Below are positions 34,621 through 59,602 of a stretch of 64,000 bases of DNA, piece by piece (positions within the stretch are counted from its first letter, which is position 1; the number at the start of each line of letters is the position of its first letter). A program made the position numbers and the translations under genes. Source of the stretch: the human T2T-CHM13v2.0 reference genome, Homo sapiens; NCBI RefSeq assembly GCF_009914755.1, contig NC_060938.1. The stretch is one strand, 5' to 3'. Under the pieces are notes generated by a model. That model was not told the origin of the DNA. It saw only the letters and a list, made by a program, of their open reading frames with translations, and did not search any database.

Positions 34621-35396
34621 AATTCTTCCTCTGTAAAGGATATATAGCTGAGGGTTGTACTTCAGCTTTCACCATCATTATTTACATAATTTTTAAAAAT
34701 GACGTGAGGACAAATCACAGTTAGTGTCTTAGCTTAATAAACTTTACCTCCTCAAAATAACAGTAAAATGTTTTGGCAATATAATCATTTTTAAAGATTA
34801 CTTTTATGACAGAGCAGATCTGGTGTAAAAATTAAAAGGTAGCTACAAGAAGCCTGCCAAAGAAGCACGAAGTTATGAGCTAGTTAGTTGGAAGCACAGT
34901 TTTGCAAATTAGTACCCACCAATTCAATCCCAAATCAACAAGAGACAGGTCCACAAGAAATGTGAGGAGCTGTGGGTCTCTGTTCAGTTATACTAACATG
35001 CAAATGCTTGGAAGATATGTGTTGGTTTGACTTGCATATCTATTTGTGAGTGGTTACCAAATATGCTTGAGCATCCTAGAAAAATGAGACTCCACGAGAG
35101 GAAACAGGCATGGTTTAAAAATAGCAGATGAAATGTGATTTGCAAAGTGTTTTTGGCTGGTGAACATTTGCAGAAATGCATGTTTATGCACATAGAACTG
35201 ACCCACAATATTGCAGAGTATACAAATAAAACAACAAAACATAGTATCTGGAATAGATTCAACAGTATCACAATTAGCAAAAAAGCTTTGGCTCTTGACA
35301 GGCTTCTGCTGGATCTACACTTAGAGTTCACAGCTGTTCTGACATCTGCTTCCATCATGCTTCCTCAAATAATCCATCAGCAGCTACGTGGTATAC

Positions 35397-35916
35397 TGTG
35401 ATCACTAGCCACCAAGATGGCCCCCATAATCTCTGTGTCCTGGTGTTCATGCCCTTGTGTGGTCACATGGGGACCACACAAGGGCATGAACACCAGGACA
35501 CAGAGGAGGAGACCACGTGAGATGGTCTGCATGATCAATAAAATACAGCAGAAATGATGGCATGGCACTTTTGAGATTAGCTTATAAAAGACACTGTCTT
35601 TGTTGCTCAAGCTCTTTATCAGAGCACTGCTCTGGGGGAAGCCAGCTGTCATATTGTGAGCATTCTGAGAAAAGGCCCACACGGCAAGAAACTGAAGCCT
35701 CTCACCAACATGAGTGGGTCTGAAAGCAGATCCTCCAGTCTAGTCAAGCCTTCAAACATTTTGACTGCAACCTCATAAGAGACCTGGGGCGAGAAACCCT
35801 CAGTGAAGCTTACTCCCAAATTCCTGACTCTCAGAAACTGTAAAATCGTAAATATTTGTTGTTGTAAGCTACATATTTTGGGATCATTTGTTAAGCAGTA
35901 GTAGAAAACTAATGCA
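35397..35916 (+). mobile_element. MaLR LTR, MLT1F-like
   Basis: AAGATGGCCCCCA..GCTCTGGGGGAAGCCAGCTGTCAT..TTGACTGCAACCTCATAAGAGAC..AACTAATGCA. Confidence 0.88.
35431..35505. repeat. Perfect hairpin: 34-bp arms, 7-nt loop
   Basis: CTCTGTGTCCTGGTGTTCATGCCCTTGTGTGGTC (35431-35464) and its exact reverse complement (35472-35505). Confidence 0.97.
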
Positions 35917-36658
35917 TTCACTTGGCTGATGACACTTGCCTGTTTGGATTGTTCCATTTCTTCGGCACTGTAGGTGAACTTAGACAATAGTTTCACACAA
36001 AATTAAATTAGGCAGACCAATCCTGTGACCATGCGAATCGAGTTACGAATATTGGAGTAACCCTTTCAGGCCTTTCTTTTTACAGACTCAAATTTACAGA
36101 GTCAAATGACTTATCCATGGTAACGCAATCAGTGTCATAATCCTTGCCCTTTCAGTCACCTCCAAATCAATCAAGAGTTGTGGGGCACACAACTAATCAT
36201 TGGTATTACAGCCCGGGGACAGCATTGAACAGGAACCCAGAGGAGCCCTTTTATTGCTAAGGGTCTCATTACTGTTTGTGAGGCACTGCTCCTGTGTCTT
36301 CCTCATGCCTGATGGATCATGCTCTCAAGCTTTAGAGTTCTCAGCACATATTTATCTGAATATTTTTCCAGCTCAACCTAGAGAAGTCAACATTATTGAC
36401 TTTAGGTTCTACTTCCATCTTTTATAAACCTTCTAATTTGGTCTTGGCAATGCAATGATTGCAAGCCAATAAGTACCTGTAGCAGTAATAAATCAGTAAG
36501 AAGCAATCCAACCCTACTGATAATAGAGATAAGTTTCCTAAAGGACTTGAGTCATAATATCAAGCTTGTAGCTACTGTGAGTGAAGAAATATGAAGGCTA
36601 CAGATCCAGAGACGAATGTGCTCTTCATGATGGGGTCATAAGGGTCCCAAATTCTAGA

Positions 36659-38134: not shown

Positions 38135-39238
38135 GTTTTACCGTATAGATGTAGAATATATCTTGTTAGTAACGAAGTTACATAACTCAATTTAGCTGCA
38201 TCAAAAACATATAGTAGAACAGTGGTCATTTGTTATTTGCTAAAACTAAATTCTAACTGTTGTCTAATTACAGAATTAACATATTTTCCAAGTGCCAATC
38301 AGCATTTCAATTCTAGAGCCCAAGTTCAGATTGTTCAGGAGAGGGCCAGACAAGCACAGCACTGACCTTACCTAGAATTATCCTACTGCCAAAGCCTCAT
38401 AATTGTTTGGTATTGTTACCAAGGGACTCTCTGCTCAGCAGCCTCTGGAAGCACCAGTGGGAGCCACCAAACAAGAGATTTGTCTTTATAGCACAGAGAC
38501 CACAGAGCCAGCATGAAGTTGCACACATCTGATACCTCGACACAATTGCTCATATTTCTCCAGTTAGTCGGTAACACGTTTTGGACAAGCATCAACCCTT
38601 TAGTTCCATGGAGTTCTAGCAATGGAAAGAGCCACAGGTAACTAAAATCAGAACTTCACAATCCCCACAAATTGGTCTGCTGGTGAAATCAGGCTGCTGG
38701 GCCCTTGTTAGGAGTGACAGGTCAGTATCACTTTTTAGTCCATGCCAAGAAAATACAAACCATCCTGGGCCACCAGGCAAAGCCATAAGAAAGAGATTGT
38801 AAATTGGCAGTTCACAGGTGCTACACAATCTGCAGGCATGTTTCAGTTAGCCCAAATCCTGTTTTTATTTTTTTGAATTGGTGGCCAACATTCAACATTT
38901 GGGAAATTTCAAATAAAAAGTTGGATGTTCAGTTTTCATTGAAAAAAAAAATTCCTCATAGCAGTAGGGCACTGTACATAGAGGAGAATATTAATAAACT
39001 CTAATGGAAATATTAATATCTTTAAACTAATAGGACAATGAGGACAATTCAGTGTTGCCTACCACCTACAGGGACATTTACTAACCTGCTGATGGCCATG
39101 CAGTTACCAGAGACAGATGTGCAGAGAACACACATCTAGGTCAGTCTGATGTTCAGCAACTACATTACTTGTCACTTCAAAATTGCTCAAGAATGACTGT
39201 GCCCAAACTATTATCTTCTCTTTTACCATGGAAGACAC

Positions 39239-39291
39239 TCATTTAACAGGTAGCATTGTTATTTGTTACCATAATGCTACCTGTTAAATGA
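39239..39291. repeat. Perfect hairpin: 19-bp arms, 15-nt loop
   Basis: TCATTTAACAGGTAGCATT (39239-39257) / AATGCTACCTGTTAAATGA (39273-39291). Confidence 0.95.
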
Positions 39292-39339
39292 ATGGGACAC
39301 TGGGACACTGAGGGTAGAACACTGGGCAGTCCAGTTCTA

Positions 39340-59264: not shown

Positions 59265-59602
59265 CAGCAGTCCCCACACTTTTTGGCACCGGGGACTGTT
59301 TTTTCCAAGGACAATGGGGTGAAGGGATGGCTTCAGGATAAAACTTCCACCTCAGATCACCAGGCATTAGATTCTCATAAGGAGCATGCAACCTAGATCC
59401 CTCACATGTGCAGTTCACAATAGGGTTCGAGCTCCTATGAGAATCTAATGCCGCCACTCATCTGAGAGGAGGCAGAGCTCAGGTGGTAATGCTCACTTGC
59501 CTGCTGCTCACCTCCTGCTGTGTAGCTGGGTTCCTAACAGGCCACAGAACAGTACCAGTGTGCAGCCAGGAGGTTGGGGAGCCTGGGGGTTTGGAACCTC
59601 TG
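59265..59602. mobile_element. MER1B (hAT-Charlie)
   Basis: CAGCAGTCCCCACACTTTTTGGCACCGGGGACTG..CATTAGATTCTCATAAGGAGC..CTCCTATGAGAATCTAATG. Confidence 0.92.

What the first reader, a model, noticed from the sequence alone, without database searches (positions are those of the whole stretch)
35431..35520. Perfect 34-bp-stem, pre-miRNA-sized hairpin created inside an MLT1F LTR
Seen: a 75-nt hairpin with no mismatches in an otherwise highly diverged LTR. The left arm is LTR sequence; the right arm is its inverted copy, replacing the pyrimidine-rich LTR continuation I recall. A further partial copy (GGAGACCAC) follows. Inference: a recent snap-back template switch, a mechanism proposed for de novo miRNA hairpins. 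It could be a Drosha/Dicer substrate on either strand, or a cruciform.
Basis: partly seen in the sequence, partly recalled or inferred. Interest (0 to 1): 0.75.

Follow-up and report, generated by a model that had tools for sequence, protein, structure and literature searches.

The report
Template-switch hairpin in an old LTR
A perfect 75-base hairpin sits in an old repeat inside an intron of the human gene SLC35F4; it likely arose when DNA copying jumped between strands several times, is likely one of thousands of such hairpins in our genome, and probably does nothing.

Summary
The hairpin is real: arms 35431-35464 and 35472-35505, 34 bp, no mismatch, 7-nt loop, z about -10. It lies in a ~520-bp multi-copy LTR-like element (35397-35916; MLT1F label recalled, not testable here). 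It is specific to this copy: 28 of 50 other copies alignable on both sides have at most 4-8 bp of inverted repeat and a median 21.5 nt where this copy has 58, so it is a net insertion of ~36 nt, not a plain replacement. The loop and the 11 nt after the right arm resemble family sequence on the opposite strand. That favours a compound, mainly inter-strand template switch copying two fragments, as published for hsa-mir-561, over one snap-back. Age is undated; perfect arms suggest under ~4% lineage divergence. No miRNA is annotated and no Rfam family reaches its cut-off; on the transcribed strand the loop is short and basal UG, well-placed CNNC and mismatched GHG are absent. About 6,000 such hairpins are published for human genic regions, 0.9% annotated as miRNAs. 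Verdict: new member of a known kind, likely neutral.

The parts
35397..35916 (+). Solo LTR-like dispersed repeat (MaLR, MLT1F group by recall), TG...CA ends, antisense to SLC35F4
   Evidence: Matches on most chromosomes; pairwise coverage by 50 copies rises at ~35397-35407 and falls at ~35913-35920; flanking 5-mers 35392-35396 and 35917-35921 agree at 3 of 5
35431..35464 (+). Left arm; original, family-collinear sequence and the template of the right arm
   Evidence: Aligns forward to other copies; no CpG
35465..35471 (.). 7-nt loop; with 35463-35464 it is complementary to 35513-35520, so likely an inverted copy of downstream family sequence
   Evidence: 35463-35470 vs reverse complement of 35513-35520: 7 of 8, the difference is a transition at a CpG; shuffle frequency 0.0016
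35472..35505 (-). Right arm; exact inverted copy of 35431-35464, absent from other copies
35506..35516 (-). Second inverted fragment: reverse complement of the arm end (6 of 6) plus a 7-nt stretch that matches the family's pyrimidine tract only on the minus strand
   Evidence: 65% identity on the minus strand vs 4% on the plus strand over 11 copies; modal register at the arm end in 12 of 28 copies
35513..35522 (+). Return to forward family sequence through a 4-nt overlap (CCAC), followed by a shortened stretch
   Evidence: CCAC forward in 11 of 19 copies, reversed in 0 of 19; 6 nt to 35523 here vs 10-14 in the 11 copies
35523..35916 (+). Collinear remainder of the LTR

Best explanation
This is a perfect 34-bp inverted repeat found only in this copy of an old LTR-like repeat, likely made by a compound template-switch mutation during DNA replication or repair and likely without function. 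Inferred course: synthesis ran forward to the end of the left arm, jumped to the opposite strand a short way ahead, copied backwards through the loop and the whole left arm (35465-35505), re-primed on the same opposite strand to copy a second short fragment (35506-35516), and returned to the normal template through a 4-nt overlap; about 36 nt were gained. A 4-nt gap and one CpG transition in the loop would be a slip or later mutations. The arms are likely still identical because the event is young relative to the LTR (under ~4% lineage divergence) or was re-homogenised. The hairpin would be transcribed as part of an SLC35F4 intron (minus strand, mainly cerebellum) and most likely decays with it.
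For: Shown: perfect repeat; absent from 28 of 28 two-anchor copies (max 4-8 bp) and length 58 vs median 21.5 nt; a 10+10-nt arm pattern occurs once in 3.1 Gb, here, against 2 control hits; right arm 34/34 to this left arm vs 18-29/34 to 50 other copies; loop and 35506-35516 match downstream family sequence in inverted orientation (both matches together in 2.5e-5 of shuffles). Literature: inverted repeat with inverted spacer is a common inter-strand event type, 23% of human-chimp events (PMC5453318, passages); hsa-mir-561 arose as an ape insertion from three switches copying two fragments from the opposite strand (PMC10710096 SI legend); 6,054 miRNA-sized hairpins from such events, 57 annotated. 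No Rfam family at cut-off in the window; the supplied RefSeq table lists no miRNA.
Against: No orthologue was available, so the pre-event state is judged only from paralogues ~74% identical; 22 of 50 copies lacked both anchors, several of the 28 look mis-anchored (range -1 to 38 nt), and the orientation test rests on 11 copies selected for carrying CCAC. The diagnostic fragments are short (7-11 nt) and were noticed before being tested. The loop differs from its presumed template and 4 nt are unexplained, so serial events (snap-back, then loop inversion as in mir-4713) fit too. Neutrality is a prior, not a measurement: the stem length is near the Microprocessor optimum and the host intron is transcribed.
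Confidence: 0.65

Rival explanations
1. Serial simple events: an intra-strand snap-back made the hairpin, and later switches inverted the loop and the neighbouring 7 nt.
For: Hairpin creation followed by loop inversion is documented for hsa-mir-4713 and mmu-mir-3086 (PMC10710096, main text). The CpG difference and 4-nt gap in the loop suggest more than one step. Short pairing (3-7 nt) between the arm region and the downstream stretch pre-exists in other copies.
Against: Needs at least three separate events within 60 nt; a lone snap-back predicts a forward loop and does not explain 35506-35516.
Confidence: 0.17
2. Templated insertion during break repair (polymerase-theta-type end joining with repeated priming on 1-4-nt microhomologies) rather than at a replication fork. 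Same sequence outcome, different enzyme; from my own knowledge, no paper read.
For: Net insertion, two locally templated fragments, short overlaps at junctions, ~7 nt lost downstream.
Against: A 40-nt templated run is long for that pathway (recalled); the sequence cannot separate the two.
Confidence: 0.12
3. A young intronic miRNA or proto-miRNA: Drosha cuts the hairpin from the SLC35F4 intron (or from an LTR-sense transcript) and yields ~22-nt RNAs.
For: 34-bp stem, near the ~35-bp optimum (PMC6298569, passages); intronic, and 81 of 99 intragenic switch-born miRNAs are sense-intronic; SLC35F4 ~10 TPM in cerebellum (PMC12786601, passages); plus strand has CNNC 17-19 nt after the predicted cut and mostly open flanks.
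Against: Loop 7 nt, below the >=10 nt that favours processing (PMC10576077, passages); on the transcribed minus strand no basal UG in three registers, CNNC only at 21-23, flanks pair further, no mismatch for a GHG motif; not annotated; best Rfam score 54.6 vs cut-off 95; prior 0.9%.
Confidence: 0.04
4. Assembly artefact or a variant private to this cell line.
For: Only one human assembly was searchable; zero arm mismatches set no lower age bound.
Against: The compound structure with microhomologies and a CpG-type difference looks biological; fold-back artefacts do not create a second fragment in family register.
Confidence: 0.02

Closest known systems
Short-range template-switch mutations, four-point model (Loytynoja & Goldman 2017, PMC5453318; Walker et al. 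2021, PMC7954356), type 3-1-2-4 / 1-3-4-2
   Same: Perfect inverted repeat with an inverted spacer, copied from adjacent sequence, little prior similarity needed.
   Different: A second inverted fragment needs at least a third switch, outside the two-switch model; it lies in a repeat, which Walker et al. filtered out.
hsa-mir-561 locus (Monttinen et al. 2023, PMC10710096, SI Fig. S3 legend)
   Same: Net insertion explained by three switches copying two fragments from the opposite strand, producing a hairpin.
   Different: mir-561 is an annotated miRNA dated with orthologues; this locus has neither expression evidence nor a date.
The 6,054 miRNA-sized switch-born hairpins in human genic regions (PMC10710096)
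   Same: Intronic, stem 30-55, central loop; arm length like the 20-63 nt events in the rows of Dataset S1 that I saw.
   Different: Whether this locus is among them could not be checked; the list is not in the three supplements held as text.
mir-3910 (Rfam RF03578)
   Same: Best Rfam hit (54.6 bits); near-palindromic hairpin; 17 of 21 nt shared with the left arm.
   Different: Below cut-off 95; its locus shows no similarity to this LTR beyond shuffles (26-33 vs shuffled max 33; control copy 277). Not a relative.

Membership tests
Template-switch mutation | Inserted segment is the reverse complement of nearby sequence, >=15 nt | tested here: met
   34 of 34
Template-switch mutation | Repeat absent from the parental state | tested here: met
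   By proxy only: 28 of 28 two-anchor paralogues have <=8 bp; pattern unique in the genome
Template-switch mutation | Switch alignment beats forward alignment against an orthologous ancestor | not testable with these tools
   No primate genomes held
Simple two-switch (four-point) event | One inverted fragment explains all new sequence | tested here: not met
   35506-35516 is a second inverted fragment
Intra-strand snap-back | Template lies wholly upstream of the first switch; loop in forward orientation | tested here: not met
   Loop complementary to 35513-35520 (7 of 8); criterion from PMC7954356. A later loop inversion is not excluded
Canonical pri-miRNA | Stem of about 35 bp | tested here: met
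   34 bp; on the minus strand further flank pairing extends it
Canonical pri-miRNA | Apical loop of 10 nt or more | tested here: not met
   7 nt
Canonical pri-miRNA | Basal UG and mismatched GHG | tested here: not met
   No UG at -14/-13 in three registers on either strand; stem has no mismatch; positions recalled, motifs
Canonical pri-miRNA | Downstream CNNC at about 16-18 nt (distance recalled) | tested here: inconclusive
   Plus strand 17-19 nt, minus (host-sense) strand 21-23 nt
Canonical pri-miRNA | Precise ~22-nt reads from the arms, Drosha/Dicer dependence | not testable with these tools
   No small-RNA data
Known miRNA family (Rfam) | Score at the gathering cut-off | tested here: not met
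   0 matches in the window; best 54.6 of 95
MaLR LTR, MLT1F group | Dispersed multi-copy element of LTR size with TG...CA ends | tested here: met
MaLR LTR, MLT1F group | 5-bp target-site duplication (recalled feature) | tested here: inconclusive
   3 of 5 match
MaLR LTR, MLT1F group | Best match to the MLT1F/F1/F2 library entry | not testable with these tools
   No Dfam or Repbase library; label recalled. PMC5753468 (passage) only confirms MLT1F is a MaLR LTR name

The most novel reading that the evidence does not exclude
An unannotated, ape- or human-specific (perhaps still polymorphic) cerebellar proto-miRNA born in one three-switch mutation inside an LTR, whose arms are complementary to the many MLT1F-type copies in other transcripts and so came with a ready-made target set.
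Probability: 0.04. Interest if true: 0.55.

Novelty: new member of a known kind. Interest (0 to 1): 0.2.

Why it matters
As it stands it is a clean teaching case: paralogous repeat copies show the anatomy of a multi-switch event of a type that published scans miss twice over (more than two switches; repeat-masked template). That hints that catalogues undercount hairpin-forming switches in repeats, but the mechanism and its link to miRNA birth are already published. It would matter more if reads showed processing or if the hairpin were polymorphic in people, giving a before/after test of miRNA birth.

Tried and rejected
Family feature or inserted MITE: rejected. Recurrent hot spot at this LTR position: one exact 10+10-nt pattern found only this locus; diverged cases would be missed. 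Kinship with mir-3910: rejected. Known RNA family: none at cut-off. Published catalogues: Walker 2021 S2 Data (4,016 rows) has one chr14 entry between 57.5 and 58.09 Mb, 57,548,304, about 110 kb from my GRCh38 estimate of ~57.66 Mb (estimate from recalled gene coordinates); uninformative because repeat-masked templates were filtered, and S1 Data was too large to read. Monttinen 2023: no hit for chr14, SLC35F4, MLT1 or MLT1F in 3 text supplements or for 575-579 as coordinate starts in Dataset S1; Dataset S2 unreadable. Loytynoja 2022 (PMC9435742): 11 of 22 supplements searched, no matching place. Paper searches 'SLC35F4 intron miRNA' (3 listings, none relevant by abstract) and 'MLT1F miRNA hairpin' (0) found no description of this hairpin. 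A larger genomic background sample was not obtained; the rate rests on 220,698 bases enriched for LTR copies. The bacterial promoter/terminator scan is not relevant to a human locus and was at shuffle level. Cruciform role: possible in principle (PMC7999016, passages; DNA hairpin -44.9 kcal/mol) but the characterised unstable human palindromes there are 200 bp or longer and AT-rich; no evidence here.

Full report
Observation. The stretch 35431-35505 is a perfect inverted repeat of 34 bp with a 7-nt loop. Folded with flanks it gives -86.6 kcal/mol on the plus strand and -95.8 on the minus strand, z -10.4 and -10.9, with 0 of 200 shuffles as stable. In 220,698 bases (the window plus 50 loci, a sample enriched for LTR copies) 13 perfect repeats with arms of 14 or more and loops up to 30 were found: this one, a 19-bp one at 39239-39291, and 11 TA/CA arrays in one locus. 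It is far beyond chance.

Setting. The supplied annotation places the window inside an intron of SLC35F4 (minus strand) with no miRNA or functional element. Genome searches show a dispersed repeat (44, 9 and 41 matches, lower bounds). Pairwise alignments to 50 other copies (59 loci minus 5 self and 4 duplicates) put its ends near 35397 and 35916, with TG and CA termini, flanking 5-mers agreeing at 3 of 5, and median identity 74%. This fits a solo MaLR LTR in the plus orientation. The MLT1F label agrees with my recall but could not be tested; PMC5753468 (one passage) only lists the name under MaLR.

The repeat is specific to this copy. Of the 50 copies, 28 could be anchored on both sides. Their longest perfect inverted repeat in this region is 4-8 bp, and they carry a median of 21.5 nt (range -1 to 38, some mis-anchored or of sister subfamilies) where this copy has 58. 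The net gain is about 36 nt. The right arm matches this left arm at 34 of 34 and the best place in each other locus at 18-29 of 34, so it was copied locally after the copies diverged. A 10+10-nt arm pattern with a 3-33-nt gap occurs once in 3.1 Gb, here, with 2 hits for the reversed control.

Anatomy of the 58 nt. Other copies are pyrimidine-rich after the arm end (73% in the first 10 nt; 30% here). Three short relations stand out. First, 35463-35470 is complementary to 35513-35520 at 7 of 8, differing by a transition at a CpG. Second, 35511-35516 is complementary to the arm end at 6 of 6. Shuffles of 35506-35522 give these in 0.16% and 0.18% of cases and both in 0.0025%; the tests were chosen after inspection. 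Third, in the 11 of 19 normal-length copies that carry CCAC (0 of 19 carry it reversed), the 7 nt before it match 35506-35512 at 65% read on the minus strand and 4% on the plus strand. So the loop and the fragment after the right arm are inverted versions of family sequence from downstream of the left arm, and forward sequence resumes at 35513 through a 4-nt overlap, about 7 nt shorter than in other copies.

Mechanism (inferred). An intra-strand snap-back can only copy what has already been made (PMC7954356, passages). An inverted repeat with an inverted spacer is the inter-strand type 3-1-2-4, 23% of human-chimp events (PMC5453318, passages). Here a second inverted fragment needs at least one more switch. 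The closest precedent is hsa-mir-561, an ape insertion explained by three switches copying two fragments from the opposite strand (PMC10710096, SI legend). I put a single compound event, functionally neutral, at 0.65; serial events starting with a snap-back, as with loop inversion in mir-4713, at 0.17; break-repair templated insertion at 0.12 (own knowledge). Template copying of some kind is thus about 0.95. Against my reading: no orthologue, short diagnostic fragments, 4 unexplained nt.

Age. With 68 sites and no difference, the 95% bound is 4.4% per-lineage divergence; the chance of no difference is 0.67 at 0.6% and 0.13 at 3%. By recalled rates that means roughly the last 40 million years, unless the arms were re-homogenised. 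There is no lower bound; the CpG difference in the loop hints that it is not brand new. The great-ape catalogue has no entry near my estimated GRCh38 position (estimate from recalled coordinates), but it excluded repeat-masked templates.

Function. Both strands give the same arms. The transcribed strand is minus; SLC35F4 is about 10 TPM in cerebellum and low elsewhere (PMC12786601, passages). Features that mark pri-miRNAs are a ~35-bp stem, mismatched GHG, basal UG, apical UGUG and CNNC (PMC6298569, passages), and loops of 10 nt or more help (PMC10576077, passages). On the minus strand the stem length fits but the loop is 7 nt, there is no basal UG in three registers, CNNC falls at 21-23 nt, and the flanks pair on; the plus strand has CNNC at 17-19 nt and open flanks but no annotated transcript. 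Rfam gives only shape matches (best mir-3910, 54.6 of 95) and nothing at cut-off; the mir-3910 locus is unrelated. The published prior is 57 annotated miRNAs among 6,054 suitable hairpins (PMC10710096, parts 1-4 of 6 of the main text read). I give a miRNA role 0.04. A cruciform or lagging-strand hairpin is physically possible (PMC7999016, passages; PMC5737083, passages, reports raised loop mutability for shorter repeats) but nothing points to an effect.

Print status. Searches and supplement look-ups found no description of this locus. Unseen files may bear on this: Walker S1 Data, Monttinen Dataset S2 and the genome-wide hairpin list, and 11 of 22 supplements of PMC9435742 (of which I saw supplements only).

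Verdict. Observation confirmed; interpretation partly supported, with the mechanism revised from one snap-back to a likely compound inter-strand event. New member of a known kind; interest 0.2.

Noticed in passing
window 39236-39294: A second non-simple inverted repeat 3.7 kb away: 22-nt arms, 95% complementary (19 bp perfect), single-copy in the genome. Probably another, older template-switch hairpin; shows such hairpins are not rare.
   Followed up: partly
window 59363-59452: 17-bp perfect inverted repeat with 56-nt spacer inside a high-copy repeat ~91% identical to other copies (2,694 candidates); a family feature (MER1-type DNA transposon by recall).
   Followed up: partly
L061 (G000:C9:103802441-103802522): mir-3910 shares 17 of 21 nt with the left arm but lies outside this LTR family; taken as chance.
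   Followed up: yes
L062 (G000:C23:112570212-112570301): Another long hairpin scoring 57 bits on the mir-3910 model, below cut-off.
   Followed up: no
window 35510-35528: A small 6-bp stem with 7-nt loop directly after the main hairpin, a by-product of the second inverted fragment.
   Followed up: partly
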